A stretch of DNA of 61,231 nucleotides, the filler included, from Dugesia japonica (lineage: Eukaryota), in the NCBI GenBank assembly GCA_001938525.1. It is 5 parts of 5 records of this genome, joined end to end, with 100 filler letters (N's around TTAATTAATTAA, not from the genome) between each part and the next. Parts side by side here need not be neighbours in the genome. Positions count along the whole stretch, not along the records: positions 51,508 to 61,231 come from MQRL01624021.1; 4 more parts are not named here. One strand, 5' to 3'. Position 1 is the first letter of the stretch, and each line of letters starts with the position of its first letter. Positions 1 to 59,256 of this stretch are shown here, piece by piece. The position numbers and the translations under genes were made by a program. The notes under the pieces are model-generated. The model made no database searches and was not told the origin of the DNA. It was given only the letters and a program-made list of their open reading frames with translations.

Positions 1-1
1 G

Positions 2-307
2 TGGAAGGTGGTTGACTGACACAGGTATTAATGCAGGACCGTCCTGCCACGTACTGGTTATATGATTAGTTACGGGATCTACGGTAGTAACACGATGCAT
101 TACTTCTTGGGTGCGATTGAGGCTGTTCCATTGGTAAAAAGCTTGGCGCTCCGCCGCAGCCTATTCTCTCTCATTGTCTGCCTCTTCATTAGACAAGTTT
201 GAGTAGTCAGCTAAGATGCCCGCATTACGGTTATAAGAATTAGTGTATTTCTTAAAAATGGTACGTCCCGAGCGTCTGTCCCATAATACTTCTCACTTGT
301 TTTCCAT
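2..307 (-). pseudogene. Family A orphan ORF, homolog of 56619-56972; two in-frame stops, truncated by window edge
   Basis: Manual translation MENK*EVLWDRRSGRTIFKKYTNSYNRNAGILADYSNL aligns ungapped with MESIWEKVIDRRTHRIIFQRHHNPHNQDVGILADRLNL (18/38 identical). Confidence 0.8.
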
Positions 308-491
308 CCTAATATTATTAGTTTCTACAATGATGATCAAATTTAACAAAGAAATATGGAATTCTGGTGAAAATCATCGATGATAAACTGATAAACCAAC
401 AAGAAATAAACCAAATATGATAAAATAAATGATGAATAACTAATTTTATTTAGACTAAAAGATGTCAGAGATTTCATTTTGCAAGGAGTTC

Positions 492-674
492 TTACCCTTC
501 ATCAAGATCCACCGGAAATAATAAGGGGAACATCTCCACGAAACAAGCCAAATCGGTTTCGTCGGGATGTTCTATTAGATTAGGAAACAACCGATGTTCG
601 ATAAGTTGTCTTCTCCGTGCTATTTGGCATTGTCTTAAAATGAAACGCAATGTGTTTCTTAATTCTGCCGGCAT
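492..674 (-). CDS. Small hypothetical protein (60 aa) within family A copy 1
   Basis: ATG-to-stop ORF, GC-richer than its flanks, same strand as the other cargo ORFs; no recognisable domain. Confidence 0.45.
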   Translation of the reverse strand: MPAELRNTLRFILRQCQIARRRQLIEHRLFPNLIEHPDETDLACFVEMFPLLFPVDLDEG

Positions 675-1502: not shown

Positions 1503-3280
1503 GGTAGGCACGACCTAACATAGAGTAATTTTTTCTGAATAATCTTAGATTCCAACAATATATTCCAACGACAACCGAGTGAATTCAAGTGAAGCACTAA
1601 TATCATTTATTTAATAATCATAAAATTACTAGGTAACTTACAATCTATTCAGAACAGACTCATCTTTCGATTGGCGGTTGGAGTGTGTCTAATCTAATAG
1701 TAGTTACATGCCAACTGGAAAAAGAAAAATTTCATATATCGATTTGTAATTATCTCCGGTACTGCTCGTATTGATGAAGGCAACAGTTACAAGAAGAAAT
1801 TTCGTTAGAATAAATATCTATGTGTGCATGCATCGAGCGGCTTTGGTGAATCGTTATGGCGACAATGAATTGTTAGTTGCCTACTAGTCAATTTTTATTT
1901 CGGTCGTGCTTATACACACCACGAGCAGCCTCACTGTATAGAATCGTGTGTTGGTGTGTGGGGAGTCGAATTTAGATAGATGAGTTTAACCGGCTTAATA
2001 AATGATTGCTCGTGGGATCATTGTGGCTTTATTCAATCTGACATAATAAGTAAGCGAACATGTAACCAAGGGACTTCATGTCTCTCCGGGAAATTAGAAA
2101 TCATTTCTGGATCATAATTAACACTTATCATCACCAGTTGATATCTGTCAAAAACATCTAAAATAAAGTCAGTGGTTGCAGTGTGACACGCAATATTGTT
2201 TCATCGATCATGGTAGAAATGAAAATCATAATGACCGCGAGTAAAAACCCCATACTCAATTATAGAGACACGTATTTTTAAGTTAATGAAAATCAAAAAT
2301 AAAATAACTAAAATTCATCTATTAATATATTAAGTTTAAATTTCAACATATTCTTATTCATACATTAACCAAAATTACAACATCAGCTTACTTAATTTCA
2401 GATTTCTCTATGCTGCAACGGGAGTAATAGCAGAACGAATTTTGGTTTGAGAATGCTTCTTCTGGTGTTTTTGATTTTATTGATTTTCTTTTCTAAAATG
2501 CTCAATAATTTCTCTGAACAAATTTATAAAAATTAAACCACTGATAGTGTCGAGTTTTCTCGTTGATGATTCCACAGATTTCGTTATGGCACTCAAAGTT
2601 TATGGTTTGCTCTGAATTAATGGAGCGGTTTTGATTAGAAAATGAATGAATTAATGAATTTTTGCTAAGTTTTCCGGCGGTTTAAATAGCTTTCTGGATG
2701 CAACCCGATTTGATCATCAGTGGCCGGCTATTTTTAATTTCGATTTCTAGTTTTCCATTGGCGTAGAATTGGATTTCTGAGAATTTTTGCTATTTTTCTG
2801 TTACACCATTGGCGTCTATTTTTTACTCCTCATGTGGTTTTTGAGTCTTTGTTTTATTTTTATTTTTTGGGTTGTTATTGGCTCAATCTTCCAACCCCTG
2901 TGATAGTCCTTCTGATGGTAGTAAAGTTTTTCAATTACGAAATCACATTGACCAGATAACACTTCTTTCCAATTTTTCTTACCGCAAGATTCTGGGATTA
3001 ACCAGAGTAGNNNNNNNNNNNNNNNNNNNNNNNNNNNNNNNNNNNNNNNNNNNNNNNNNNNNNNNNNNNNNNNNNNNNTAATTAATTATTTTGAAATAAC
3101 AAATTTGTTTGTTTTTATAATATAAATTTGATTTTTCTTTAATTAACAAAGATTGGATTCAATTATTCTTCAGATGTTTCTATTTTTGGCTCTTTCAGTG
3201 TTATTTTCTTATTCCCATTTTCTGTCTTCTTTTTCCTTTTAGATAACTGGTTGTTTCACCCCAACACTTCTATCAATTGT

Positions 3281-4379: not shown

Positions 4380-6673
4380 TAATTTTTGCTCTGGTTTGAC
4401 AGACAACTTTGTTACCCCATTGATCAGGATGACTGTTATTGTGTTGGGTATTTCTACTCAACAAAATATTTATGGTTTGTGAATTTGACTTAATATATAT
4501 CGATAGGTATAAAATTTTACAAATGTTGATTTTATCCCTTTGTATGTGTAGATACTATATTATGTAATCGATATTTTACTGAAAACTAATTATTTTCTCA
4601 ATTAAAAGTTTGGCTATTGTCTCTGCAGTTTCATCTTTTGTAGGGAACGCTTTTGCCCATGTTGTGAAATAGTCATTAAATAAAAATATGTGTTTATTAC
4701 ATTTTATGGTTGTTGGTAATTTGCATAGAAAATATACTGCACACGTCTCCATTGGTGAGCTTAGTATTGGCATTGGTTGTAATGAAACTTTAATTTTTGT
4801 TCCTGTTTTTTTACTTGTGGCACAAATGGTACATGGTTGACATCATTTTTTCACATCATCCTTAAAATTATCCCAATAATACTTTTGCAACAATCTCGAC
4901 GTGGTTTTTCTACTTGATAGGTGACCTTTGAGTGCTCCATCATGGTATTGTAATAGTAATAACTGTTTTAGAGAATGTGGTACTACCATCACATTTTTAC
5001 CTAAGTTATTGTGCATGAACAGATTTTTATACATTTTATATTTAGTATTCTTTTCTTGAATCATTATCTCCTGTATTTTTTATCTTTATTTTGTTCGCCT
5101 AAGAACGTTTTTGGATTATTCATATACTGTGATACGACGGGCTCAAGTGTTACATCTATTGAGATATTGTTTTGTTTAAATACATCAAATAGAAAGGTTA
5201 GTACCCTTTTATTTTCGGTTGTATTATGTATAAAAAATGTGGGTTTAATAAAGAGATTCCAATCATTTTTGTTTTTATTTGTCCATAAACCCGTTAATGG
5301 TTTATGATCTGTTCGTATAACTATTTCAGTCCCATATATAAATAGTCTTAATTGTTTTAAANCAAATATAATAGCTAGAAATTCTTTCTCGATTGTTGAG
5401 TATCTTGTTTCCGTTCCTTTTAATATTCTACTCGTATATGCAATAACAACATCTTTATTTTTCTCGTCTTCTTGTTCTAGTACTGCCTGCATGGCATATC
5501 CGCTTGCATCTGTCATTACTATGAACTTTTTTGTGAAATCAGGATATCTCAATATTGAAGCTGTTAACAATCGCTGCTTTAGTGTATCAAAAGCTTCTTG
5601 TTGTTTTGGACCTAATTTCTTTTGAGGTTTCTGTGATTTCTCATCTAATTGTTCTACAATTATGACATTTTTACTTTCGGCTTGTGTTTTCATACATTTT
5701 GTTAATTCTACCAATGGTGCAGCTATTAATGCAAAGCTTTCTATAAATCTTCGATAATATCCAATTAGGCCGTCAAACCCTTGTAATTGTACACTTTTTG
5801 ATACTGAAAANTCTTGAACTGCTTTTACCTTTTCTGGATTTGGTTCTAATCCCATTGAAGATACAATATGTCCTAAGTACAAGACACTTTCCTCTGCCCA
5901 TTTACATTTTGTATGTTTCAATTTGATATTCGTTTTTTGATTCTCGATAATACATTTTCTATATTAACCAAATGTTGCTCAAATGATTCAGATGCTATCA
6001 ATATATCGTCCATGTATAGAAATACATGTTCTACACCAGAAAATACTGTGTTCATTAGTCNTGAGAAAGTAGCTGGTGCATTACATAACCCAAATGGTAA
6101 TCTAACAAATTTATACAATCCATCATCAGTGCAAAAATGCTGTCTTTTCTCGATCTTTCTTTTGTACTGAAATCACATTATAACCCTTATTTGCATCTAA
6201 AATTACAAAATACCATGCATTCATTAGCTTGTTGAATTGTTCATATATTTTTGGAAACGGATGTGTATCTTTTTTAGTAACTTTGTCGAGCTTTCTGTAA
6301 TCTGAACACATTCAAATTTCTTCATCTTTCCTTTTTACTGGTACTATTGGCCATGCCCATTGAAAAATACTATCTTGTATGATTCTATTTGCTTTCTGTT
6401 CTTGTATTTGTCTTTTTATCTCTGATCTTAACGCATATGGTGCTACATACGGTCATTGCTTTATTAGCCTCACATTACCTGTATCAATCATATGTTTTAT
6501 AATGTTTGTTCCTCCCATATCGAATTCATGTTTAGCAAATGCATCTTCATATTTATCCAATAATTTTAGTAGTTGTTGTTTTTGACACTTTGTATGGTCT
6601 TATAATGTTTGTTCCTCCCATATCGAATTCATGTTTAGCAAATGCATCTTCATATTTATCCAATAATTTTAGT
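4380..6673 (-). mobile_element. Degenerate Ty3/Gypsy pol (RT-RNase H-integrase), frameshifted
   Basis: RT motifs DYRKL, LDANKGY, LPFGLCNAPATF, YMDDILI, YLGHIVS. RNase H TDAS, YSTIEKE, TDHKPL. Integrase HDGALKGH..YYW and DYFTTWAKAFP. Gypsy domain order. Confidence 0.95.
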
Positions 6674-11600: not shown

Positions 11601-12991
11601 ACTAACAGTATTGTTGGGCTGAAACAACCTTTCGTAAAATATGAAAGTTATAGAAGGAAATAAATTAAAGAGTAATAAGAAAATGAATAAAAATAAATAA
11701 ATAAATAATGAGAAATAAAAGAAATATAGAACATCTATGAGCACATAATCCGCTACAGAATTAACAAAAATAAAAATAATCACGTCCATATTTGGACATC
11801 TATATGGAAGCTACGGGTGAGCAAAGTACGATTTCTTGCATTAGCAGAAATCTGAGGTGGACGCCAACTGTATCTGTCAAAATTTGACAATAAAGTGAGA
11901 TATAAAAGGAAATCAAAATCATTAGAATAACACTCTTAAAAATTTCCATTAAACGCCATTAACTGTTTAATTAAATCAGAACAACTATCGGGAAAAGAAT
12001 TAAGGATTCCTTCTATTTTTATGTTATCGTATTTTAAATTGTTAAATGTTTTTTATTTTTTTGGAAGACACTGAAGGAGGGATCGTTGGGGGTTAGCTCT
12101 GCTATCTCTGAGGATCCATCTTATCAGCTACTTCCTCGCGAGATCTTCCACTCATAAATAACAAATTGACAATGTGTTGCAAGAAAGCAACGTGTCGCGA
12201 AATGATAAATATTAGCGTAGGGTAACAAGGAAGAAATGACAATTTCCTGTCTTGATAAATAAAAGAGCTGAGATGTTATACTATGATGATTAGAACGAAA
12301 AATTATTACTAGATAATAAACGGCGAATTGATTGTAGTGATAGAATGAGACACTCGTCGTTCACAACTTATTTTTCTATTAAACGCGAGTAACCTGATGT
12401 GGGAGGTGGGTGGTTGGATCTTTCTCCTTATTATATGACCATTAAACTGAAATAAACGATAGTTCATTGTATGTAAAAATATCAAACTTTAAACTATGTG
12501 TTTATTATAAATTAATTTCATATTGTATAATAAACATTTATTTGGATTACTGTTAATTGATTAATATTAATATCTTAGCTATAATTTCAGTATTTAAACT
12601 TTAAAGTTTTTTTAGATACGAAAATACACTTTGTGATATTACAATAGTGATGCTCTAAGAGATAGAAGGACCATTCATCATCCGGAGGGAATTGGATTCC
12701 TGATAATTCTCGATTGATTACAATACGGTCACCATGAAATATTATGTATAGTGATGTGGATAATCAGGTCTGAAATAGAAAGGGAGTATTCAATGAACTT
12801 CATAAAAGACTTCCATCTCCATCCAAGAGGATGAGTGGTCGATGATATATCAAGAGTAGTATGGATAAACGAAACGAGATTTATCGGTTAACATTCCTTT
12901 AATTAATAATATATACTGTTCTTTGAGTTGATTTACGATTTTTCAGTAGCCACATATTATTAACTTAATAATATTATTACTTCGAACATAA

Positions 12992-13501
12992 ATGACCCAT
13001 CAATTCGTGAGAGCAGAAGCCATCGCCAGTTTAAGTGAAGCAAGACTCAGTTTCAACAGCGGTTCAAACAGTAGCATGTCTCACGTTTGGGATTCCAAAG
13101 GGCTGGAAGATACCAATACCGAGCCCTGGTGAATGATACAAGATAAAATAAATCATAAGGAGGATTGCATCAAAAGGCTGGAGGAGAAAATGGCTAGTCA
13201 GGAACAACAACATTTCGAGAAATTGAAGCGATTAGAGGGAAAAATCAGGGAACAAGAGCAACAGTATGAGCATCAATTAACCAAAGCTATCATGAATCAG
13301 GAGGAAAGAGAAAAAGAGCTGGTCGCTCTGCTTATCAAATCCCCCGAGTTGGCCAAACAATAGCAGCAGGTCATTCAGTCCATGCGATCAACGCAAATCA
13401 AGGCGGACGAATACACAAAGATATCTGAGGGACTGTTGACAAGAACCGAAACAATCCTGCGACAGATTTTGATACAGTTGGACGAAACAAGTGACCTTTA
13501 A
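12992..13501 (+). pseudogene. Coiled-coil orphan ORF (~169 aa, two in-frame stops), family A copy 2
   Basis: Track ORF 13133-13363 extends in frame both ways: MTHQFVRAEAIASL...PW*MIQDK...LAKQ*QQVIQSMR...DETSDL*. Heptad-like E/K/Q/L composition. Confidence 0.65.
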
Positions 13502-13787
13502 ACGACATAATGTGAAATGTGTTAAATATAATAAAATTCTATTCTAATCACATCCTTCATAATTAATATTATTAAAGATTTAATACAATATAAAGATTTA
13601 AAGATAAAATGATTAAATGTTGATAAGTAAATACTCAATGATAATATAAAGAGATAAAATGTGCAATAATTTAACTCTATCATTATAATAAAAATTAATT
13701 AATTATTACGAATTTATGTAATAAAATTGTTATACCGATAAAATCGAACTATTTTATGATGAATGATTAGTCTATTTAAATTATAGA

Positions 13788-14135
13788 ATGTCAATGAGAA
13801 TCANNNNNNNNNNNNNNNAAGAGTTGTTGATCGATCAGCGCGTGGCCAGACTAGAACTAAAAAGGCTACGTAAGGAAAACAAAGAACTACGAGAAACGGC
13901 CAGCCTCACCAAACGAAGAATATCTACTTTGCGAGAACGGTTGAGTGTGAGTCGCCGGAGAGAACTCACACTCATCGCGAACAACCGAATGTTTGTCGAG
14001 ATAATAAAATCCTATGCAGATCGAGAAACATCCGTCCTCGCCAACGTAAAGACATTATGAAAGGAATATGAGGTGAAAAACAAAAGTGACGATGAATGTG
14101 TGATTACCGAGGAAACAGTCTTCGGGTCACCATAA
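13788..14135 (+). pseudogene. Coiled-coil orphan ORF homologous to 56019-56377 (one internal stop)
   Basis: SRRRELTLIANNRMFVEIIKSYADRETSVLANVKTL vs SHSQECIWKRQVESFSEMIRSSHDRENKLVSDILLL, ungapped, 10/36 identical (F.E.I.S..DRE). ATG preceded by TTATAG-A. Confidence 0.65.
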
Positions 14136-14463: not shown

Positions 14464-15996
14464 TCCTAGAAAAGAAAAATTGTTAAAGCATAGCCAAGAT
14501 TGAATATTTAATTTTTAAAAAAATGGTTTGTGACCAACACCACAGATTATATCGTAATGATGATTTCAATTTGATAACATCTTTAAATTGCGAGTGTCCT
14601 GCACGGGTTGGTTCATCGGAGACGGAAGCATGTGGTATGTTTTGATCGAGATGATGACCTTAATAATAAAATATTCTGTTATTAAGTATAATTATAAAAA
14701 ATATTCGAATAAAAATAACTGAAATTTTATACGTTAATTTTAGCTTTTAACAAATATTTGTAGAAAAAATCCACAAATGAATAAAAGGACTAAATAAAAA
14801 GAAAATTACAAGAAACAGTTTTTCTATTTTCTTAAGAAATTTTAGAAAACTTTTTTTGCAATACGAATTTAAAGAGTTAATGCATATTGTAATATAATGC
14901 ATGTTTTTTGTAATAATACTAATAGGAGTTGAACAAAGAAACAATCGGACACTTTTTGTAGATGAAATATGAAAAACTACATGAACACAAAAATGTATTT
15001 ATCAATTTTGTGCAAATCAAAGAGGATATGACGACAATAAACGAAGAAGAGAAGATGAGGATCAGTTCAAGGATATAAATGTACAAATAAAAGTAGAAAT
15101 TGATTTTTATTTTCTATTGATTGATTTTTCTATTTTCTTTTTTTTCTTATTTGTTCTGCTTGTTTTTCTTAATGTGCTTAGAGAAGATTCAACTACCATG
15201 GACGACAGAAACGAATTTCAATAAAATTACTAACATGATAAAAATTAAATATGAAGTCCAGAACTTATTAGGAGCTCAGGATAAAATGAATTTTTTTGAG
15301 AAATGAGTGGATGATGTCGGAAAATAGTGAGAATTTGTGCATTCCTAATAATAATTATTTTGATATTTTAAATGATTTTATTTATATATTGATATTTTAA
15401 TGAATATTATTTAAATCGATGTTTGCACTGTAAGTAAAATTTAACTAAGTGAATTTCCGTAATAATTGAACATTAATATTTTGGAGTAAACCATTGAACA
15501 GTAATAATTTTTGTTATAAATTTGAAGTAAATTTTAGCAATAAATTAATTAAAATTTTGAGATATTGCAACCACAAATAATTGTTTTGTTTTTGATTATT
15601 AATTTAATGATTACGAATATAATGAGCTGAGCTAACATAAATAGTTNGGGGGTATTATTTAACTAGCATGACAATTAACAGAGGTTTGATGGGTGCACAC
15701 TGTTGAGTTAGTGATATTTTAAAATGATTTTACCTATTTGATGGTTCGCTTTTTACTTTAAATTTTCTTAAATAAATTCGAGCAAAAATTGAAGAAAAAT
15801 AATGTTAAAGATAATGATAATAAATGAGATTTGAAAATTGTGATAAAATTATTTAGATAAAAATTAATTAATTATTAAGTCCTGAAATGATTATATTGGT
15901 AAAGAACAGACAAATTGTTTAAATAATTAACCTCAGTGTCGATAATATTTCTGACATTTCAGGAAACCCACTAAATAATATACGAAATTAATTTAC

Positions 15997-42899: not shown

Positions 42900-44020
42900 T
42901 ATGAAACAGACTTCTTACATAGCGACCACCCAAGGACATATGCTCAATTCCTTTGTTCCTACTCCAAAAACCTTCGATATTGGAGACGATGTGGAATAAT
43001 TTTTAATCGAGATAGCAAGATTTTATAAGCTTACAATGACTCAAGGTCATGAAAATCTCTTAAAACTTCCCATTCGAAACCATTAGTTTTTATTTCATAA
43101 TTAGAAATATGCAATGGAGATAATATATAACTTTTTCGGAGTGTCATATTATTTTCAAGCGGTTTTTGATCTTATTTAAGGACATTTATAGAAATGTTGA
43201 ATAATTTTTCCAAAGTGTTAATCTTATTTATTGGAAAAGCTGTCTTCATTACTTGATTTAGGTCTATACCATTTTCCATAAATACATCAGTATTTATTGC
43301 CTTAAAATATTTTGAATAATATTAAAATTCAATTTTATGGTGTAACTCATCCGGTTGAGGAAATAAATATGCAATTATATGACAAAATATGCAGAAATTA
43401 TCTTTTGTTTTAATATTTATAATTGAGTTGAATCTTAATGGAAAATTTGAAATGTGTCCTCCACGTAGAAATTTAACTCTGATGAATTCTAATGCAAGTT
43501 CTTTAAAACCTATCATTCTCCAATTGCTTCCTTGTAAACTATTCATCTTTTTCTCGAAAACATTATTTATGCTAATATACATTTCTTCATAATTATTTCT
43601 ACTATTATTAAAACAAATTAAAGGATGCGACCGAATTAATATATCCTGTTCTAAAGTATTTCTATTTTATATCTATTCATTAATTAATAAATCGTCTCTT
43701 TTCATATAAACGGTGCTGGAGATTATAGATTTGAAGTTCTTGTAAGGAAAGTGTTCTATCTTATCCATAATTGTATTTTCAAAACTGGATAAATAGGTAT
43801 TTATATTATCAGTTAAAATTAATTCATGGAATATAAGCTCATTAAAATAATAGGCGTGAACATTTATTGCTTCCAATCTATTAATCTCCCGTTGTTCGCG
43901 ATTATATCTTCGCTCTTCTTGCCGATTAAAGAAACGGATGGACCTATTAATTCTATTTCTCCTATTTCTCCTTATAATTGGAGGTAAATTAGGATTATTA
44001 TTTCTTCGTAACGCTGGCAT
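42900..44020 (-). pseudogene. Decayed N-terminal part of a Maverick/Polinton-type (protein-primed PolB-associated) ORF
   Basis: QGSNW...LRGGHISNFP...IINIKTKDNFCIFCHIIAYLFP and FPINKINTLEKLFNISINV resemble the GSGW..LP..IIN..N.D..CF.W.I.A / FP..I..FE..N.ISINV pattern I recall for such elements. No catalytic motifs present. Confidence 0.6.
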
Positions 44021-44700
44021 AACTTTTTATTATTATTTCATTTTTATTTATTTAAAATAATGTTATTTATTAAAGTGTAATAGTTATTGAATGGGATGAA
44101 TGTCACTTGTGGCTTATTTTTTCAGCGTTTTTGCATGGTTTTATTTATTTTATTTAATCATTTTAGTCAATTGATACAAATTTTGGGTTTTCTGTCATTG
44201 AATCGAAAAAACCCTTAAAAACGTCCATTTTCGACATGGTGAAAAAATCCAAAAAAGTGCTATAGGGCCGATTCCGCTCATTTAACAACTACTTAAATGA
44301 ACGTGTACTAATTAACCCGAAAATGTTAAATTCATTGAAAATAGCGATTTATTGGTTTTTATAAATTTGAACAATAGATTTATTTTGATAATTATGTTTG
44401 GCTAGAACACATACGTCCGGCAACANNNNNNNNNNNNNNNNNNNNNNNNNNNNNNNNNNNNNNNNNNNNNNNNNNNNNNNNNNNNNNNNNNNNNNNNNNN
44501 NNNNNNNNNNNNNNNNNNNNNNNNNNNNNNNNNNNNNNNNNNNNNNNNNNNNNNNNNNNNNNNNNNNNNNNNNNNNNNNNNNNNNNNNNNNNNNNNNNNN
44601 NNNNNNNNNNNNNNNNNNNNNNNNNNNNNNNNNNNNNNNNNNNNNNNNNNNNNNNNNNNNNNNNNNNNNNNNNNNNNNNNNNNNNNNNNNNNNNNNNNNN

Positions 44701-47665: not shown

Positions 47666-50600
47666 AATAGAACCTTTTTAGTTGAAGATAGACTAACAGA
47701 TGCTGATAAAAGTGTGTTTTTGACCTTGCACAATAATGATAGCTTTCGTTCATTACTGAACTCTAATGCCTTATCCACAAATTTGGTGAGATATTACAAT
47801 TACTTAGTTCAATTAGATGAAATAAAAGTTGTTCTGTCAAAACTAAAAACTACTACATCAGCACCGAAAGAAGTTAAATCAACATCTTCGGTACAATTTG
47901 AAGATGGTGGAAAATTTATTGCTCTTAAAAATGCTACAAAGGGTAATGTAGTAGTACGGTTTCCTCCTGAAGCTAGTGGTTATTTGCACATTGGTCATGC
48001 TAAAGCTGCTTTGATTAATCAACATTACAAAGATCATTATGAAGGTAAATTGATAATGAGATTTGATGACACAAATCCTGCTAAAGAATCTGCCGAATTT
48101 GAAAAAATTATTTTGGAGGATGTTAAAAGTCTTGGAATTACATATGACCATTTCAGTTATTCTTCAGATCATTTTGACTTATTAATAAAGTACTGCGAAG
48201 ATTTAATAATTTCCGGAAATGCTTACGCTGATGATACAGATCCTGTACAAATGAAAAAAGATCGCGAAGAGAAAGTTATATCAAAATGTAGAAATCGGTC
48301 TGTTGAAGAAAATCTACATATTTGGAATGAAATGAAATTAGGATCAGATGTGGGAGTAAAAAATTGCGTCCGTATTAAATTTGATATGAACTCTAATAAT
48401 GGCTGTATGAGAGATCCAACTATTTACAGATGCAAACCTGAAATTCATCCTAAAACCGGTGATAGATATAAAGTCTATCCAACGTACGATTTTGCTTGCC
48501 CAATTGTTGATAGTATTGAAGGTGTGACACACACTTTAAGAACCAGTGAATATAACGACAGGAATGAACAATTTTACAAATTTCTTGATCTACTTAAACT
48601 CAGGAAATCCGCTATCGCAGACTATTCGAGATTATCTTTACAAAACACTGTTTTATCAAAGCGTAAATTAACTTACATTGTCGATGAGGGTTATGTCGAT
48701 GGATGGGATGATCCTAGAATGCCGACAGTTCGAGGAATTCTCAGACACGGTATGACCATTAATGGATTGAAAGAATTTGTTCTGGCACAAGGATTCGGAC
48801 GTGCCAATGTTGTGATGGAGTGGGATAAATTATGGGCATTTAATAAGAAGGTTATTGACCCGATTGTTCCTCGATATACTGGCTTGACTGGATCGGAAAA
48901 ATCATTAGTTTTAGTGAAAATAATCGATCAATCCACCATTGTAAAAGATTCTGTTGTTAAACATCCGAAAAACGATTCTATTGGCAAGAAATCTATTTGG
49001 TTCAGCCCAAGTGTATTTGTGGAAATGAACGACGCTGTTGATTTTGTAGAGGGAACAAATGTCACTTTTATCAACTGGGGTAACATTTTAATTACCAAAA
49101 TTCATCGAAATAGTGACAATACGATCAAATTTGTCGAGGGAAAATTGAATTTATCCGACAGAGACTTCAAAAAAACTCAAAAAATCACATGGATGCCTTT
49201 GGGAGAGAATGATGACGTCACAGCGTTTTCAATACCGATTTCGACGATTTTCTACGACAATATTATCACGAAAAACGTTCTTGGAAAGGATGACGACTTC
49301 AAAAATTTCCTAAATAAAAACTCGAAACGAGAAGAATGTTTAATCGGAGATATTGAGTTGAAAGATTTGAAAAAAGGAGAAATTGTTCAGTTACAACGAC
49401 GAGGATTCTTTATTTGCGATGAAGAATATCGAAAGAAATGTAAAGTGACTGGAAATGAGTTGCCGTTGGTTTTGATCAATATACCCGAAGGAAATACCAA
49501 AGAACGACCGACTGTAGGTATGAAACAAAAATCTGGAACAACTTCAAAACCAGATTCCGGTGACCAAAATGATAAAAAGAAAGAAAAGAAGGACGGCTCT
49601 AGTGCAAGAGAAACCAAGAAGGATGGTTCTAGTGGAAGAGAAACCAAGAAGGATGGCTCTAGGGCAAGAGAAACCAAAAAGGATGCATCAAGTGCAAAAG
49701 AAACCAAGAAGGATGCATCAAGTGCAAGAGAAACCAAGAAGGATGCATCAAGTGCAAGAGAAACCAAGAAGGATGCATCAAGTGCAAAAGAAACCAAGAA
49801 GGATGCATCAAGTGTAAAAGAAACCAAGAAGGATGCAACAGATGTGAGTAAAACCGAATCTCAAGTGAAAAAGGTTACTCGCCTAGGTCTAGAAGTATCA
49901 AAGAGTGAAAATTTTTCCGAATGGTACACTCAGATTATCATAAAGGCAGGCCTAATTGAATATTACGATATCAAAGGTTGTTACATTCTTTTGCCGTTAA
50001 CTATGAAGTTGTGGGAAAAAATCCAAAACCATATCAACCAATTCATCGAGACAATCGGAGTTGAACCGTGTAGCTTTCCGTATTTTATTTCGAAAAGTGC
50101 TTTAACCAAAGAAAAAGATCATATCGCAGACTTCTCTCCAGAGGTAGCTTGGGTAACAATGGCTGGTGATAAGAACTTAGAGGAACCAATAGCGATTAGA
50201 CCGACTAGTGAAACGGCCATGTATCCGTATTACGCCAAGTTTATCCAGTCTCACAGAGATCTGCCATTGAAATTCAACCAGTGGTGCAGTGTGGTCAGGT
50301 GGGAATTCAAGCATCCCATGCCATTTCTGAGGAGTAGAGAATTCCATTGGCAGGAAGGTCACACAGCATTTTCCAATCAGAAAGACGCTACTGATGAGGT
50401 CTATCAAATTTTGGATCTTTATGCTTCGGTCTATGAAGATTTATTGGCGATTCCTGTTGTGAAAGGAAGAAAAACCGAAAAGGAAAAGTTTGCAGGAGCT
50501 GATTTTACGACGACAACTGAAGTTTACATAGGAGCTTCCGGTCGTGCCATACAAGGTGCCACGTCTCATCATTTGGGTCAGAATTTCAGTAAAATGTTCG

Positions 50601-51376
50601 ACATTAGTTTCGAGTCAACCAGCGGGAAACAGGAATTTGTCTATCAGAACTCATGGGGCATGACAACTAGAACCCTGGGTATATTGGTTATGGTACATGG
50701 TGACGATAAAGGGCTTGTATTGCCACCGAGAGCTGCACTACATCAAGTGGTAATTGTACCGTGTGGACTGACAGTCAAATCGACTGACGAAGAATCTCAA
50801 TCAATCTATGATAAGTGTAAAAGCTTGGCTGAGAGATTGCGCAAGGTGAATATCAGAGTTCAGGCAGATTTAGAAACTCATCGATCTCCTGGATTTAAAT
50901 TTAACAAATGGGAATTAAAGGGTGTACCGATTAGAATTGAAATGGGCCCCAAAGATATAGCCAATAAGAAAATTGTTTTGTGCTACAGATTAAATGGAGT
51001 AAAAGAAACAATTGATGACGAAGGAATGGAACAAGTTATGCTTGAAAAGCTGGAAGATATTCAAAAAATGATGTTTAACAAAGCAAAAGAAGAATTGGAC
51101 AGTCATAGAACAGTGGCTTATAATATGGATAATCTGTGTAAAGCACTTAATAACAAGATGCTGGTAACATGTCCATTTTGCGGAGATAAAGCTTGTGAAG
51201 ACAAAATTAAGCTTTTAAGTGCTGGAGAGTCGATTGTCGAAGAAGGTGCTCCCTCAATGGGTGCAAAATCATTATGTATTCCATTTGATCAGCCTGACAA
51301 TCTTGGTGACAAATGCATCAATAATGAGTGCACCTTGAAACCAAAATATTTTACAATGTTTGGAAGAAGTTATTAA
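47666..51376 (+). CDS. EPRS: Bifunctional glutamyl-prolyl-tRNA synthetase, main exon; true start upstream (possible first exon ATG at 47248, N gap in between)
   Basis: GST-C-like remnant RTFLVEDRLTDADKSVF. GluRS motifs RFPPEASGYLHIGH, RFDDTNP, YPTYDFACP, VLSKR, GWDDPR. Eukaryote-type ProRS motifs IRPTSET, FLRSREFHWQEGH, QGATSHHLGQNF and C-terminal FGRSY. Confidence 0.98.
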   Translation, partial: NRTFLVEDRLTDADKSVFLTLHNNDSFRSLLNSNALSTNLVRYYNYLVQLDEIKVVLSKLKTTTSAPKEVKSTSSVQFEDGGKFIALKNATKGNVVVRFPPEASGYLHIGHAKAALINQHYKDHYEGKLIMRFDDTNPAKESAEFEKIILEDVKSLGITYDHFSYSSDHFDLLIKYCEDLIISGNAYADDTDPVQMKKDREEKVISKCRNRSVEENLHIWNEMKLGSDVGVKNCVRIKFDMNSNNGCMRDPTIYRCKPEIHPKTGDRYKVYPTYDFACPIVDSIEGVTHTLRTSEYNDRNEQFYKFLDLLKLRKSAIADYSRLSLQNTVLSKRKLTYIVDEGYVDGWDDPRMPTVRGILRHGMTINGLKEFVLAQGFGRANVVMEWDKLWAFNKKVIDPIVPRYTGLTGSEKSLVLVKIIDQSTIVKDSVVKHPKNDSIGKKSIWFSPSVFVEMNDAVDFVEGTNVTFINWGNILITKIHRNSDNTIKFVEGKLNLSDRDFKKTQKITWMPLGENDDVTAFSIPISTIFYDNIITKNVLGKDDDFKNFLNKNSKREECLIGDIELKDLKKGEIVQLQRRGFFICDEEYRKKCKVTGNELPLVLINIPEGNTKERPTVGMKQKSGTTSKPDSGDQNDKKKEKKDGSSARETKKDGSSGRETKKDGSRARETKKDASSAKETKKDASSARETKKDASSARETKKDASSAKETKKDASSVKETKKDATDVSKTESQVKKVTRLGLEVSKSENFSEWYTQIIIKAGLIEYYDIKGCYILLPLTMKLWEKIQNHINQFIETIGVEPCSFPYFISKSALTKEKDHIADFSPEVAWVTMAGDKNLEEPIAIRPTSETAMYPYYAKFIQSHRDLPLKFNQWCSVVRWEFKHPMPFLRSREFHWQEGHTAFSNQKDATDEVYQILDLYASVYEDLLAIPVVKGRKTEKEKFAGADFTTTTEVYIGASGRAIQGATSHHLGQNFSKMFDISFESTSGKQEFVYQNSWGMTTRTLGILVMVHGDDKGLVLPPRAALHQVVIVPCGLTVKSTDEESQSIYDKCKSLAERLRKVNIRVQADLETHRSPGFKFNKWELKGVPIRIEMGPKDIANKKIVLCYRLNGVKETIDDEGMEQVMLEKLEDIQKMMFNKAKEELDSHRTVAYNMDNLCKALNNKMLVTCPFCGDKACEDKIKLLSAGESIVEEGAPSMGAKSLCIPFDQPDNLGDKCINNECTLKPKYFTMFGRSY
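49586..49836 (+). repeat. Coding 30-bp tandem repeat (KKDASSARET x8 plus partial) in the EPRS linker
   Basis: AAGAAGGATGCATCAAGTGCAAGAGAAACC units, in frame. Confidence 0.98.
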
Positions 51377-51751: not shown

Positions 51752-51860
51752 CTCGACGCTCATACTAGTTTGGGTACACCCGATCTCGGAAGTTAAGCAG
51801 CACTAGGCCTCGTTAGTACTTAAAACGTGAGCAGTGTCGACTGAGCCTGGCTGGTGTTTG
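51752..51860 (+). pseudogene. 5S rRNA-derived sequence (pseudogene or SINE3-like head)
   Basis: CATACTAGTTTGGGTACACCCGATCTCGGAAGTTAAGCAGCACTAGGCCTCGTTAGTACTT matches eukaryotic 5S (CATAC..CCCGATCTCG[~10 nt deleted]GAAG.TAAGCAG..GGCC..GTTAGTACTT). Box C region diverged. Confidence 0.75.
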
Positions 51861-52905
51861 GTTAGTGATAACCTTACGCATTACCATGGCAAAAGAAGTC
51901 CACCACTTCGTATACGGATGTTTGCGCCAAGTCTTTCAAGGTTCTCTAAGAATCATTTATCTGCCTTAGAAGAAGTTCATAAGAAGTTCATTAAACGCGA
52001 ATAAAAGTAGATATCTAAAATGTTATTTTTTTTTATCTACTTAAAATTCACTGAAATTTCTAACCGAGTAAAGATTTGGATGTGAAAATGGATTTTTATT
52101 TTNNNNNNNNNNNNNNNNNNNNNNNNNNNNNNNNNNNNNNNNNNNNNNNNNNCATTAGATCGTCGATGGGATACTCCAATCAGCTAGTAGAATCTGATCC
52201 TGCTAGTTGATTTCCCTACGACATCAGATCTACGATGCCCAGTAATGGGGTTTCTTCGCCTGAAAGGGCAATGTTAATCTCGGCGTTAAAATACGTGTTG
52301 TTCACTGGGCCTCGTTAGTACATATAACGTGAGCAGTGTCGACTGAGCCTGGCTGGTGTTTGGTGTTTGGGGTTTCTTCGTCTGAAAGGGCAATGTTAAT
52401 CTCGGCGTTAAAATACGTGTTGTTCACTAGGCCTTGTTATTACTGATAACGTGAGCCTGGTTGAAGTTTGGTTAGAGATAACATTACGCATTTCCTGTGC
52501 AAAAATGAGTCTACCACTTCGTATTTGATGTCTCGGTTGTTCAAGTTAGTTTCGGTTAAGTCCTTTCAAATTTTCTTATAATTCTCTGCCTAATAGAGAG
52601 TTTCATCATTAGATCGTCAATGGGACATTCAACATCATCTAGTAGATTTATATTCCTGCTAGTTTATATCCCAGCGACATCCGATCTACGGTGCACATTC
52701 TGCAAATGGCTATTTTCACTGAGGCGTATTAATACGTGTAGTTCACTTAGACGTGTATTTAAATAATAAGTATTTAATAAATTTTTTATCTGTATTTTAA
52801 CAGTCTGCAAATGGCTATTTTCACTGAGGCGTATTAATACGTGTAGTTCACTTAGACGTGTATTTAAATAATAAGTATTTAATAAATTTTTTATCTGTAT
52901 TTTAT
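51800..52905 (+). repeat. Complex tandem repeat containing the 3' half of the 5S-like sequence
   Basis: CACTAGGCCTCGTTAGTAC..ACGTGAGC recurs at 52303 and 52425. CATTAGATCGTC block at 52153 and 52607 (454-bp period). ~114-bp duplication at 52690-52905. Confidence 0.8.
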
Positions 52906-54270: not shown

Positions 54271-55099
54271 GAATATTTAATTGCTTTTTTCCAGTAGTTC
54301 TAACTAAAATTTAACCAATACCGTTCTGTTTGTCATATCATTGCACATATAATAATATCAATTTTATTGTAAAAAAACATAGTTTTAAATGAACTTTGAC
54401 CAATTTAATTGATAAATACCTTTGGCTGCCATTTTGATTGGTAAGGAAGCATTTTTCGATAAAAGTTTATGAGTCAATCCTGACTTACTTTTCAATATTT
54501 TATGTAAATCCGAAAACCTAATTTCTATGCCGCATTGTCGGTAGAGATGGGTACTATTTACCTACTATATAAACTCTGTAAAAATAAGTAGAGAAATTAA
54601 TAATGAAGCTCCGTTAATACCAACTCTTTCTAGTACTTTAAAAGTATAGTTATTTCTCTTCTAATGCGGTATGTATTTAATGCGTCATAGAAGACGGACC
54701 TAGAACACCGTGTAACGCACTGTTTATACAGAATTAACTTAAATAAGCTTTATTTATAATTATTTCCAAATTTGACATTTTGACATTTACAAGGGATAAC
54801 TGTATATATAAAATATTTATTAAATGATGAAAACATTGCATACCTCATTTTAGTAGATTATATTAAAAAAAATTTGAAAAAAATAAATTTGAAAATAATA
54901 AAAGTAAATTTATTTTCCAAATATAAATATATTATAACAACCACAATAGTAACATAACATTTAAATTTGAAAATTGAATAAAAATGTGATGATACAGGAG
55001 TTTTCACTTCTTAAACAAATCTATTTTATCATGAAGAATATAAAGAGATGTCTGAATTAAAAAGTCACTATATATTGCGTACAGATATAGATACATTTA

Positions 55100-55630
55100 T
55101 GTAGAAATAAAACATTTCCAATATTTTAAAAAAAGTGGTCTTGTAATGGTTGACAATTTGTCTCTTATTTTGACAATAATTCTTATGAACTTTATTGAAA
55201 GTCTAATAATTCTTAAAGCAAAGAAGAAAATATTTCTATTTTTTAGATACACCGACGATATTTTCTTTGTTACTAATTCTCTTTTAGAGAATATTTTGGA
55301 ATTAGTCACAAGTATTAATGATAAAATCAAATTCAATTTAGAGAAGTCAATTGACTTTCAGATTCTTTTTTATGGACCCCTTAATATAAACGAAACCTGA
55401 TGAAATATACACTACCCAGTTATATATGAAACCATTTCAAAATTGACATATATAACACTGGAGTAGTAATACTATACTCAGATAGAAAATTAGAATAAGT
55501 GAAAGAATAAGAGAGAAAAGACTATCTTCAAATGAAGAAATGAAATTGNCTTGTCTCGGGTTGATAAAAAATAAATTCTTAAATAATGACTATCCAAATA
55601 AAATGATAACGAAATATTTATCTTTGACTA
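55100..55630 (+). mobile_element. Penelope-like element reverse transcriptase remnant
   Basis: MVDNLSLILTIILMNFIE..FFRYTDDIF..SINDKIKFNLE and downstream LNNDYPNKMI, a PLE-type RT/thumb pattern. Confidence 0.7.
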
Positions 55631-55638
55631 AACAAATA

Positions 55639-55886
55639 TCACTGCTTTAGGAACTCTATTTTTCTTTGCAAAATTTGTTTGGTTTCAGCTTCCAGGGCCT
55701 TAGTTTCGATTGCTAAATCACCCTGTTTCTTTATTATGTGGTCGAGTTTTTTAATTAGCCTATCCCGTTGATTTAGGTGCCTTAGTAGAGCTTTATCTGT
55801 CTTCCGTTTTAAATGTCGCTCTACCAACAGGCGGCGCATTATACAGTTATATCGACGGAGGTAATTGGGAAAGTGGATGTGAGGCA
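55639..55886 (-). CDS. Basic coiled-coil small protein (family A cargo)
   Basis: Open frame PHIHFPNYLRR...QILQRKIEFLKQ following a TTTTATTTTTCAG acceptor-like site. Confidence 0.6.
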
Positions 55887-56018
55887 CTGAAAAATAAAAT
55901 AAGTTTAATATACAAGCGTTCGACCACAAAACTCAAGCAAAAATTAAGGCAATAATGGAATCCGTAAAGAAAAATTGAACAATAAGTTTATTAACAAAGA
56001 AAAATCATTTCTATATGT

Positions 56019-56377
56019 CTAGTTGCAAGGGGTCTGGGTGCCCTTCTCGATCATCAGCGGCTCGAGAGGGATTTTCTCCCGGAGAAGTAAAATGTCACTA
56101 ACCAGTTTATTTTCTCGGTCGTGGCTGGACCGAATCATCTCCGAGAAAGACTCTACTTGTCTTTTCCAAATGCACTCCTGGGAATGGGAGGCTTCTGCTT
56201 CCTTTTTAAAGAGGGTGCATTTTTTCTTATAGCGTAGGACATTACTGTTGGCTGTGGCTACCTCAGCTTCCCATCGTCGTTTGGCTAACCGATACAAGTC
56301 CTAAGTGCGTTCGAGGTCCTTACTGGTATCTCGGATTTTCTTCGTGGGGGCTGGAGGGCGATTGAACGAGTAATGCA
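56019..56377 (-). CDS. Coiled-coil small protein (family A cargo; one internal TAG)
   Basis: HYSFNRPPAPTKKIRDTSKDLERT*DLYRLAKRR... following CTTTTCTTTTTAG. Homologous to 13788-14135. Confidence 0.6.
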
Positions 56378-56618
56378 CTAAAAAGAAAAGACATATACAT
56401 ATTATCGAAAAATAGCACTCATAACTTTATGTTCTACAAGATGCAGCAGTTACGAGTCCAATCATTAAGTTTTAGACCATCTAAATTGATTAAAAAACCT
56501 AGAAAAACACCTAGAATTGGAAGCAAATCAAATCTCTTAAAAATTATCCAAGACATTGAACATATATTTTAGACGAGGACAACCACATAATTTTATTGTA
56601 CATTATATATATGAATCA

Positions 56619-56972
56619 CTAAGGAGAAGTTGATGAATCTGGCGCTGGTGCGGCTTTTTCCGAGTCTTTGCTACCCGAGGGTTCTCTTATTCCCCACAGC
56701 AGGTTGGTGATATAGGCCTGTACCGCGGGAGCTGAGGGTGCTTTTTTAGGCTGGTATTGGAATGGTGTTGCAAGGGTGCAAAGAGGGCCAAACCAGACTT
56801 GGTATCGTTGACGCTCGCCAAAGATTCTTATGCGTTCAACGATGGATTCTACCGGCGGCAAATTCAATCTGTCGGCCAAAATGCCCACGTCCTGATTGTG
56901 CGGGTTGTGATGTCGTTGGAAGATAATTCGATGGGTCCTCCTATCTATCACCTTTTCCCAGATCGATTCCAT
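56619..56972 (-). CDS. Intact 117-aa orphan protein (family A cargo)
   Basis: ATG-to-stop, GC-rich against its flanks, with a diverged homolog at 2-307. Confidence 0.75.
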   Translation of the reverse strand: MESIWEKVIDRRTHRIIFQRHHNPHNQDVGILADRLNLPPVESIVERIRIFGERQRYQVWFGPLCTLATPFQYQPKKAPSAPAVQAYITNLLWGIREPSGSKDSEKAAPAPDSSTSP

Positions 56973-59256
56973 TCTATAAGTAATAGAAAGTCTATTTAAA
57001 TTAATTTATCAATTAATAGTAAATAGAAAGAAACAACAAATAGAATTAGTCAAAGTATTAATTTATTTCAGACAAATAACCAATATGAATGATATGTTTT
57101 GCTACTTTAATTCATAGGCGACAATGATTAAGATGCGAATATTAGTCATATGGAATTTACTGGGTAACAGCAACACTAAAACTTTTCACTCTAACTGGAT
57201 AAACAATGATAATTAACGATGAGTGTGTCTATCTGATATTTTACTGCCAAAACTCCTCAGTTCCAGACTAGTGGTAGATGCGTTGAAGTTACTTTTCTCG
57301 ATTGCTGCGTCACAAATAACATTCCTACGATATTAACAAAAGTTTCCGGTGATAATATAGCATAAATTGGGGACACTATGTCGTTGTATTAGTCAATTTA
57401 ATAAATGAAAAGATTATTCGTGGATATTTTCTCGTTCACTGGAATTAATGCGTTCACCTATTCATGTCGTTTTGGAATTATATAATCTATGGTTGGAAAA
57501 CAGTGAGCTATCTATTGAAAAATAAATAAAAATAATTGTGAATTCTTTATTGTAATTTATCTATTAATTTGTTTTTTCTTTTACTGTAAAATAATTTATT
57601 TTGTTTCTAAATAACATTTATTGTCATAACAGATACAAACATTATAGTATAAAGTATATATAAAATTTACATTTTTAATCGAAAAACTTGTTTCTGCAAC
57701 GGGTAAATATTGGGAACCTGCAATTAAATAATTTGATAGGTGATCTCTTCTTCGTTTTATCTTGATGAATTAATCGTTTTTCCGTCCGGTCGACACTATG
57801 ATTTCTCTTTACAGTGTCAGTGATAGCGGTTGAACCAAATGATTTTTGCTTGAGTTAATAGTGGCTGTTTATAGTGGTGGTTTTTAAGAAACTTGAATTA
57901 ATATCCTTCCAAAATAGTTTGTAATAATACACAGTAGTGCTAACTTAGCTAAATTGGAATTTTTCTTGTTGTTTTTCTGCTAAAGTCAGGGGCCCATTTA
58001 TAGGATTTTCTCATGCACCCCGGCATCATTTCTATTGGTTTTTTATTTTTAGTTTGAAATCACGGATTTTCATTGGCGTTGGTGCAACTTTTCTGGAATT
58101 CCGTGGACTTTTCTGTGATTCCGTTGGCAGTTACTTTGGGATTGTCAGGTGAGCTTTTGTTCTTTGTTATATTTTTATTTTAAATCTCCTATTGGTCCAA
58201 TCTTGGGGACCCTGCAGCAACCCTCTGGAAGGTGGTAAGTTTTTCTTTGTAGTAATTTCAACTGCATCTTGATATTTTCTTTCCGTATTTTCTTATCCTG
58301 CTTCTTTCTGATTTTCCTGAGTGAAGATATTCGGATAAAACGAATTTTTTGTTAATTTCACTTCTTTTTTTATTTAAAATAAATTAATATTTTTCTTCTG
58401 TTAATTGATTATTTTCATACCGATTTTCTTGGTTTTATTATTATTTAATAATTCTTCTTAATTCCGCTACCGATATAGTTTGTTTTATGACACTTAAATC
58501 GTTGAACCCACCTTCGATGGTAGTTTAGTCCTCTTTACAGATTATTTCCGTTACAATCTTTCCAAATTATAATTGCTTTCTTCTTTTGAATTCTATTACA
58601 AGTAAATTTACAGGTTCTACCATTCTTCTTTGCCGATTTTGAATTTTTGGTCTTATTACCTTTCTTCACGGGTGTTTCACCCCAACACAATAATTAATTT
58701 TTTTACAATAATTAAAATGTTTAAAAAATTAGTAAAAAATTAGAGTTTTAATATTGTAATATTTTAATGTTAATAAAATACATATTTTAAATATTTGAAT
58801 ACTTTATTGTATTAATTGTTTTTTTTTTAAAAATTTGAGAAATTTCAATTCAATTTAATAAAAAGGTTTTTTAAGATTTAATTTTAATACAAAAAAATTA
58901 TAATTTAACTAGACCAATAAAATCTTTTTGTAGCAAAAATCTATTGTCGTTTTGAATTTATCAAAAAGTCATCATTCCTGAAAAATACAAGTGTTGAAAA
59001 TTTGAATTTCTTTAAAAATACATTTTATTTTGATCGAATCTTTTTCTTTATTTTATTGAAATTTTTGAGGTTCAATTTTACTTTTCTTTTCCGATCAACT
59101 TTCATTGAATAATCATTATTGTTGTATGAATCTATGAACATACTTAAGCCCTGCAAGTATTTGTAAATTCTCTGTGACATGCCTCAATTTTATGTTTATT
59201 CTTAGATGCCATACATAACCGAAAAAATAACTTAACAATAGTATTACTAAATTTCA

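What the first reader, a model, noticed from the sequence alone, without database searches (positions are those of the whole stretch)
55870..56990. Cargo ORFs sit behind their own 3' splice sites; two may gain their AUG only by splicing (A|UG)
Seen on the minus strand: CTTTTCTTTTTAG|TG CAT TAC at 56377 and TTTTATTTTTCAG|TG CCT CAC at 55886. A leader exon ending in A would create an in-frame AUG in both. Other cargo ORFs have TTATAG-A-ATG (56972, 13788) or ATTAG-G-ATG (307). Copy 1 has a donor-like AA|GTAAGC near 2391, just after the conserved CCCGTTGCAG block; the equivalent copy 3 site (AT|GTAAAT) fits less well. Every ORF has its own stop, so they are not exons of one protein. Inference: one promoter and leader are spliced (cis or trans) to alternative acceptors, as in complex retroviruses.
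Basis: partly seen in the sequence, partly recalled or inferred. Interest (0 to 1): 0.7.

Follow-up and report, generated by a model that had tools for sequence, protein, structure and literature searches.

The report
Retroelement cargo genes needing spliced starts
A repeated, retrotransposon-like element in an AT-rich animal genome carries several small unknown genes, each behind a splice-acceptor-like site, and one gene evolves as protein-coding for 80 codons without any start codon, so its start is likely built by splicing to a shared leader, a step no RNA read has yet shown.

Summary
The motifs are real: TTTTAG|TG (56377) and TTTTCAG|TG (55886) sit where AT-rich spacer turns into GC-richer ORF, in a multi-copy element with a gypsy-LTR-like left end. 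Other copies show no listed majority change at either AG|TG. Between the 56377 acceptor and the first in-frame AUG (80 codons on), their differences fall 3/4/15 on codon positions 1/2/3 of the x|TG frame (p=9e-4). So ORF B is coding and needs a start from elsewhere. The leaders of copies 1 and 3 are AUG-free up to a donor-like site, and 4 of 5 ORFs have AATAAA 21-41 nt after the stop. This fits one leader spliced to alternative last exons, with A|UG. Against: three raw RNA runs and one RNA-guess assembly show no reads across the acceptors, so no junction is shown. Copy 3's donor ends in AT (giving AUUG). ORF C has its own AUG 16 codons in. ORF B carries a private stop in this copy. Split AUGs are known (Drosophila gypsy env, AU|G); one leader serving several cargo exons, each with its own poly(A) signal, was not found in my searches. 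Verdict: likely a real new variant, mechanism about 50%.

The parts
58674..58687 (-). Copy 3 left end TGTTGGGGTGAAAC (LTR-like terminus; the same in copy 1 at 3266, one letter different in copy 2 at 11612)
57996..58235 (-). Promoter-like module: CCAAT at 58195, 58076, 58038; TATAAAT at 58002; about 61% identical to copy 1 2659-3008
57673..57985 (-). Predicted non-coding leader, 0 ATG against 2.8 expected (p=0.03); holds CCCGTTGCAG 57703-57694, which itself looks like an acceptor
   Evidence: start site inferred from the TATA box
57663..57672 (-). Donor-like AT|GTAAAT (5 of 7 consensus positions); would give AUUG, not AUG, with acceptors B and C
56973..56992 (-). Acceptor A (TTATAG|A ATG)
56619..56972 (-). 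ORF A, 117 aa, own ATG; homologous to the copy 1 ORF at 307 and to unnamed protein P0123
56592..56597 (-). AATAAA 21 nt after the ORF A stop, followed by a U/GU-rich stretch
56377..56397 (-). Acceptor B (CTTTTCTTTTTAG|TG), phase 1
56019..56377 (-). ORF B exon, about 119 codons, coiled-coil-like by eye; first in-frame ATG at 56138; broken in this copy by a stop at 56303-56301 that other copies lack; third-position bias among copies
55987..55992 (-). AATAAA 26 nt after the ORF B stop, 106 nt before acceptor C
55886..55906 (-). Acceptor C (TTTTATTTTTCAG|TG), phase 1
55639..55886 (-). ORF C exon, 81 codons after the junction; in-frame ATG at 55839 (66 aa)
55056..55586 (+). High-copy repeat with a reverse transcriptase fragment (RYTDDIF) that appears to cut copy 3 off; not part of the element
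   Evidence: RVT_1 E=0.007, below the curated cut-off
2384..3266 (-). Copy 1 left end, promoter module (TATTTAAA 2688), AUG-free leader (0 against 3.6 expected, p=0.008) and donor-like A|GTAAGC at 2391
1..674 (-). Copy 1 cargo ORFs: 674-492 (plain ATG, tract without AG) and 307 to the window edge (ORF A homologue, two stops)
11612..14060 (+). Copy 2: left end 11612; broken coiled-coil-like ORF 12992-13501; ORF B homologue 13788-14060 with AG|A ATG
39863..41156 (+). Short solo-LTR-like element G1 (TATTGGGGTGAAAT ... AAAACCCCCACA) whose left end matches the cargo copies; relatives at about 23480-22277(-) and 4469-4156(-), the last just downstream of a decayed pol

Best explanation
A multi-copy, likely gypsy-LTR-derived element carries small novel ORFs, each behind an acceptor-like AG and most followed by a poly(A) signal, and one promoter with an AUG-free leader is likely cis-spliced to these alternative last exons, so that a leader ending in A would complete A|UG for ORF B and probably ORF C. 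Shown: the motifs, the AUG-free leaders, codon-type divergence of ORF B from the acceptor on without an in-frame AUG for 80 codons, and no listed majority change at either AG|TG among other copies. Inferred: the transcription start, which donor is used, the splicing itself and the A|UG start. ORF A and the copy 1 and 2 ORFs keep a full ATG just behind the AG, so the same AUG-free leader would serve them too. This copy is decayed (private stop in B, donor ending in AT, right end lost).
For: Majority differences among other copies between 56377 and 56138 fall 3/4/15 on codon positions 1/2/3 of the x|TG frame (22 places, p=9e-4). In the first 25 codons they fall 1/2/7 (p=0.02); per run 3/4/11 (X1) and 3/4/13 (X14); neither other frame shows this bias. 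There is no ATG in that frame upstream either. No row at either AG|TG among the 40 of 60 rows shown; in X1, 34 of 41 majority places are shown and only one C>T place is hidden, so at most one of the two sites could read ATG in most copies. The untruncated indel table has nothing there. Both leaders lack ATG up to the donor-like site (p=0.008 and 0.03), which disfavours a coding leader. B and C share phase 1. AATAAA lies 21-41 nt after the stop in 4 of 5 ORFs against 2.8 per kb background. Precedent for a start codon made by splicing: gypsy env AT|G (PMC2585583; bioRxiv 2023.08.03.551782).
Against: No junction seen. Raw RNA runs X2 and X3 (6% and 25% read) have zero depth in the bins holding both acceptors. 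X6 gave 3 reads and X9 2 contigs, none across an acceptor. Copy 3's best donor ends in AT; the nearby A|GT at 57687 is weak, and part of the other copies differ at 57686. Copy 1's A|GTAAGC matches only 4 of 7 consensus positions, and sites of 5 or more occur 1.6 per kb. ORF C has its own ATG and no selection test was possible on its first 16 codons (no rows listed in 55840-55887). ORF B's homologue in copy 2 starts with a plain ATG. Phase-1 donors with an upstream AUG exist in the A-B spacer (56510, 56453). 20 variant rows were hidden, 18 of 55 places for X14.
Confidence: 0.5

Rival explanations
1. The acceptors are real, but B and C are second coding exons: an upstream exon with its own AUG ends one base into a codon (phase 1), as ZAM/Beagle env is joined to a short peptide. 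TG is then just the rest of an internal codon.
For: Explains the shared phase 1 and the codon-type divergence equally well. Phase-1 donor-like sites with an open upstream AUG exist at 56510 and 56453, and a phase-1 A|GTAAG lies inside ORF B at 56323, which could join B to C. Precedent in bioRxiv 2023.08.03.551782.
Against: The leaders are AUG-free up to the first donor-like site. The candidate donors match only 4 of 7 positions and lie in AT-rich spacer. It needs TG twice by coincidence.
Confidence: 0.22
2. The element is an operon-like polycistron resolved by polyadenylation and spliced-leader trans-splicing at each AG, with starts at the next AUG or at a near-cognate codon made at the junction.
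For: Each ORF has an acceptor, and 4 of 5 have a nearby AATAAA; AATAAA to next acceptor is 106 nt for B to C. No convincing cis donor in copy 3.
Against: A leader ending in AUG (flatworm type, PMC12582326) opens only 30 and 15 codons at B and C and is not the frame under selection. Other leaders I recall end in G, which would give GUG. A to B spacing is 220 nt. The host taxon and its leader RNA are unknown.
Confidence: 0.13
3. No splicing is needed: B starts at the GUG formed by the AG's G plus TG on short transcripts from the AT-rich spacers, and C starts at that GUG or at its own AUG (55839).
For: GTG is in frame at both sites, and C has an in-frame ATG giving 66 aa.
Against: Does not explain the pyrimidine tract plus AG at all three copy 3 ORFs, or AG one base before the ATG in copies 1-3. 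No promoter-like signal was noted in the spacers by eye; not tested formally.
Confidence: 0.1
4. Artefact of decay: this copy's ATGs mutated to GTG and the acceptor look is chance in 70% AT DNA.
For: The copy is decayed (private stop, many majority differences). Homologous ORFs in copies 1 and 2 have a plain ATG. Medium acceptors occur 1.15 per kb.
Against: No majority change is listed at either site; X1 leaves room for at most one.
Confidence: 0.05

Closest known systems
Drosophila gypsy / springer-subclade errantivirus env (start codon made by splicing)
   Same: A leader donor is spliced to an acceptor in front of an ORF that lacks its own AUG (PMC2585583 and bioRxiv 2023.08.03.551782, passages read).
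   Different: There the split is AU|G, serves one ORF (an F-type envelope) and is mapped in RNA. Here it would be A|UG, for two of several small non-envelope ORFs, and is unmapped.
HIV-1 D1 to A1-A5 alternative splicing
   Same: One donor in a 5' UTR is joined to the ORF behind whichever acceptor is used (PMC7912102, passages read).
   Different: Here most ORFs have their own AATAAA (alternative last exons), the ORFs do not overlap, and no gag/pol/env lies in the copies. HIV accessory genes keep whole AUGs (recalled).
ZAM/Beagle env; C. elegans Cer1 CERV; Oikopleura Tor3a env; bdelloid ORF3
   Same: Invertebrate LTR retrotransposons that express extra ORFs from spliced mRNA; Cer1 uses TTTCAG acceptors.
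   Different: Each has one extra product, with a coding upstream exon or a whole AUG, inside an autonomous element.
Burro/GYPSM1 giant gypsy elements of planarians
   Same: Gypsy-like, thousands of copies, accessory ORFs, in AT-rich genomes (PMC6431247, passages read).
   Different: No sequence comparison was possible, and the host being a planarian is only a guess. Burro cargo as described is mostly polyprotein domains.

Membership tests
Ty3/gypsy LTR retrotransposon (or its LTR) | TG...CA termini with short inverted repeats | tested here: inconclusive
   Left end TGTTGGG[GC]TGAAAC in 3 of 3 copies, 12 of 14 letters equal to the left end of solo-LTR-like G1. No right end found for any copy with a profile of the G right ends; copy 1 leaves the window and copy 3 appears cut off.
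Ty3/gypsy LTR retrotransposon (or its LTR) | 4-6 bp target site duplication | tested here: inconclusive
   None for copy 2; one unconvincing 5-mer for copy 3.
Ty3/gypsy LTR retrotransposon (or its LTR) | gag/pol (RT-RNase H-integrase order) in or linked to the element | tested here: inconclusive
   None inside the copies. A decayed RT-RNase H (Pfam) with an integrase-like tail (by eye) precedes a right end of the related short LTR at 4469-4156.
Ty3/gypsy LTR retrotransposon (or its LTR) | U3 promoter homologous to the short LTRs | tested here: inconclusive
   Pairwise p = 0.006, 0.02, 0.03 and 0.42 for copies 1 and 3 against G1 and G2; profile E about 0.95.
Ty3/gypsy LTR retrotransposon (or its LTR) | Dispersed, multi-copy | tested here: met
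   1363 X1 records laid on 581 bases, 573 of them under 90% alike; three diverged copies in the window.
Ty3/gypsy LTR retrotransposon (or its LTR) | Primer binding site and polypurine tract | not tested
   Looked for by eye only; none obvious.
Errantivirus-type env with splice-made AUG | Coding ORF without its own AUG directly behind an acceptor | tested here: met
   ORF B. ORF C only partly (ATG 16 codons in).
Errantivirus-type env with splice-made AUG | Mapped junction that creates AUG | tested here: inconclusive
   No RNA coverage across the acceptors in X2, X3, X6, X9.
Errantivirus-type env with splice-made AUG | Product is an F-type envelope glycoprotein | tested here: not met
   81-119 codon ORFs, no Pfam family above cut-off.
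Complex-retrovirus-type expression (HIV-1) | One 5' UTR donor in an AUG-free leader | tested here: inconclusive
   Leaders are AUG-free; donors are weak.
Complex-retrovirus-type expression (HIV-1) | One shared 3' end for all mRNAs | tested here: inconclusive
   4 of 5 ORFs have their own AATAAA, which points away from it; no 3' ends mapped.
Spliced-leader operon | Leader-tagged reads at the acceptors | tested here: inconclusive
   No RNA reads or loose ends at the acceptors.
Spliced-leader operon | Leader-supplied AUG (flatworm type) in frame with the ORFs | tested here: not met
   Phase 0 opens 10, 30 and 15 codons at A, B and C.

The most novel reading that the evidence does not exclude
An invertebrate gypsy-type LTR has become a multi-gene expression cassette: one promoter and an AUG-free leader ending in A are spliced to a row of exchangeable last exons, each with its own acceptor, stop and poly(A) site. 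Some exons have given up the A of their start codon, so their proteins can be made only from the spliced element transcript.
Probability: 0.4. Interest if true: 0.72.

Novelty: new variant of a known kind. Interest (0 to 1): 0.52.

Why it matters
If true, it shows a retrotransposon running an accessory-gene programme close to that of complex retroviruses, with proteins of no known family, in a high-copy animal repeat. A split A|UG would act as a lock that ties translation to correct splicing. Gene predictors would miss such ORFs or start them wrongly. The claim is directly testable with RNA from conditions where the family is expressed.

Tried and rejected
No genome is held for the window. Run search: no RNA holder listed; 1 of 24 rows held the stretch, which is no evidence on expression. 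Homologue searches: ORF A, 0 of 9 candidates; the 93-aa part of ORF B, none; ORF A profile, 1 hit in 1.84 billion, P0123, unnamed; ESM Atlas blank for A and C, and ORF B was not searched there. Metagenome scans (ORF B, ORF A alignment) and one viral scan were blank. Pfam gave nothing above cut-off for the cargo ORFs. A fold of ORF A was queued but never returned, so there is no structure. Homology of ORF C to the copy 1 ORF at 674 looked plausible by eye but is not significant (p=0.11), so it is not used. A right LTR end near 14530 for copy 2 was rejected (p 0.4-0.98). My first guess of a Strongyloides-type nematode is unsupported: EPRS best hits were mostly vertebrates at about 60%, and the taxon stays open. 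None of the 12 joints... listed (15 of 166 shown) or the 3 has CT..AC ends, i.e. none is a minus-strand GT-AG intron. Earlier-scan look-ups returned nothing. Grohme et al. 2018 was not held.

Full report
Setting. The window is AT-rich animal DNA with one intronless fused Glu/Pro-tRNA synthetase, whose best hits are mostly vertebrates at about 60%, and much decayed mobile DNA. The taxon was not determined. No genome is held. One contig set (X1) holds 53% of the sampled words of copy 3. RNA runs under the same label share other repeats of the window, with matching loose ends, so they are likely the same or a close species.

The element. Three diverged copies begin TGTTGGG[GC]TGAAAC at 3266(-), 11612(+) and 58687(-). 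Copies 1 and 3 share a CCAAT/TATA module (61% over 360 nt). The same left end opens a 1.3-kb solo-LTR-like element (39863-41156). A relative of its right end lies just downstream of a decayed gypsy-type pol. The promoter likeness to these short LTRs is only suggestive (p 0.006 to 0.42), and no right end or target duplication was found for the cargo copies. So 'gypsy-LTR-derived' is likely, not shown. Copy 3 appears cut at about 55586 by a high-copy repeat with an RT fragment.

The observation. All quoted motifs are present. GC rises from 17-30% to 45-53% across the three copy 3 acceptors, with change-points at +3, +17 and -3 nt. Only 12 comparable AG|TG sites exist in 118.9 kb of both strands. 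Three corrections: ORF B has a stop 24 codons after the junction; ORF C has an in-frame ATG 16 codons in; and two cargo ORFs (674, 12992) have no AG at their ATG. ORF A matches the copy 1 ORF at 307 (p<0.001), and ORF B matches the copy 2 ORF at 13788 (p about 0.003), which has AG|A ATG. C against 674 is not significant.

Other copies. Laying contigs on 55840-56420 gave 1363 X1 and 175 X14 records. 40 of 60 difference rows at 40% share or more were shown, and none lies at either AG|TG. For X1, 34 of 41 places are shown and one C>T place is hidden, so at most one site could read ATG in most copies. For X14, 37 of 55 are shown. The indel table is complete and has nothing there. The stop in ORF B is private to this copy: 833.7 of 853 depth in X1 and all 104.7 in X14 read otherwise within that codon. 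Between the acceptor and the first in-frame ATG (56138, 80 codons on), the 22 listed places fall 3/4/15 on codon positions 1/2/3 of the x|TG frame (p=9e-4), and 1/2/7 in the first 25 codons (p=0.02). The other two frames show no third-position excess. Each run alone gives 3/4/11 and 3/4/13. The places are not independent events, and hidden rows were left out. ORF B is therefore coding from the acceptor on and must get its start elsewhere. No rows were listed for the first 16 codons of ORF C, so the same test could not be made there.

Leader, donor, 3' ends. From just below the TATA box to the donor-like site, copy 1 has 0 ATG (3.6 expected, p=0.008) and copy 3 has 0 (2.8 expected, p=0.03); in both, ATGs begin right at or after that site. 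This favours a non-coding leader and hence A|UG over a coding first exon. But the donors are weak: A|GTAAGC matches 4 of 7 positions, and AT|GTAAAT matches 5 of 7 but would give AUUG. AATAAA lies 21, 26, 41 and about 27 nt after the stop in 4 of 5 ORFs examined, and about 80 nt after in the fifth, against 2.8 per kb. The units thus look like alternative last exons, or cistrons of an operon.

RNA. X2 and X3 (6% and 25% read) have zero depth in the bins holding both acceptors. X6 (25% read) gave 3 reads under 90% alike, and X9 2 short contig pieces, none across an acceptor. Splicing is untested, not refuted.

Known systems. A start codon made by splicing is known: gypsy env takes AT from the donor and G from the acceptor (PMC2585583, passages). 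Springer-subclade env uses AU|G, while ZAM/Beagle join a short peptide (bioRxiv 2023.08.03.551782, passages). HIV-1 joins donor D1 to acceptors A1-A5 (PMC7912102, passages). Spliced extra ORFs occur in Cer1 (PMC10309623: abstract, Background, passages), Tor3a (PMC4402516: abstract, one section) and bdelloid elements (PMC5408684, passages). Flatworm leaders end in ATG (PMC12582326, passages), which gives the wrong frame here. Burro elements were read about in PMC6431247, PMC8532177 and PMC11410931 (passages) without a way to compare sequences. PMC13524379 had nothing relevant. Nine searches listed no element with several alternative last exons and A|UG starts. The library lacks most subscription journals and repeat databases, and no supplements were read, so this is weak evidence of novelty.

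Verdict. The acceptors are very likely real and ORF B needs an outside start (about 0.8-0.85). That the start is A|UG from a shared cis-spliced leader is about 0.5; a phase-1 coding exon 0.22; trans-splicing 0.13; GUG or internal AUG without splicing 0.1; decay 0.05. New variant of a known kind; interest 0.52.

Noticed in passing
window 51752-51842(+) and 51800-52900: 5S rRNA-like match (Rfam RF00001, 43.9 bits) beside a set of short repeats with very high depth in DNA contigs and some RNA reads; possibly a 5S-derived SINE or array remnant.
   Followed up: no
window 56100-56139: A 40-nt part of ORF B has over 100 times the contig depth of its flanks (246,000 in X1), with loose ends on both sides: a far more abundant relative appears to share this stretch.
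   Followed up: no
window 57703-57694 and 2422-2413 (-): The conserved CCCGTTGCAG block follows a pyrimidine-rich run and may itself be an acceptor, making a 21-23 nt mini-exon before the donor-like site.
   Followed up: partly
window 56323(-): Phase-1 donor-like A|GTAAG inside ORF B that could join the first 18 codons of B to exon C.
   Followed up: no
window 47666-51376(+): Intronless fused EPRS with a KKDASSARET-type repeat linker and no WHEP domain hit; no close relative found.
   Followed up: partly
window 39841(-) and 44395(+): A second pair of repeats beginning TGTT[AT]GGCTAGAACAC, about 70% alike over 290 nt.
   Followed up: no
window 43325-44026(-): Two broken ORFs that recall a Polinton polymerase-associated region (from memory); no Pfam hit.
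   Followed up: no
window 23529, 32702, 42470, 51452: A 12-nt TTAATTAATTAA-type spacer between runs of 44 N, probably an assembly linker.
   Followed up: no
window 30652-31720(-), 33494-34090(+), 4600-6670(-): Further decayed gypsy-type RT, RNase H and integrase fragments.
   Followed up: partly
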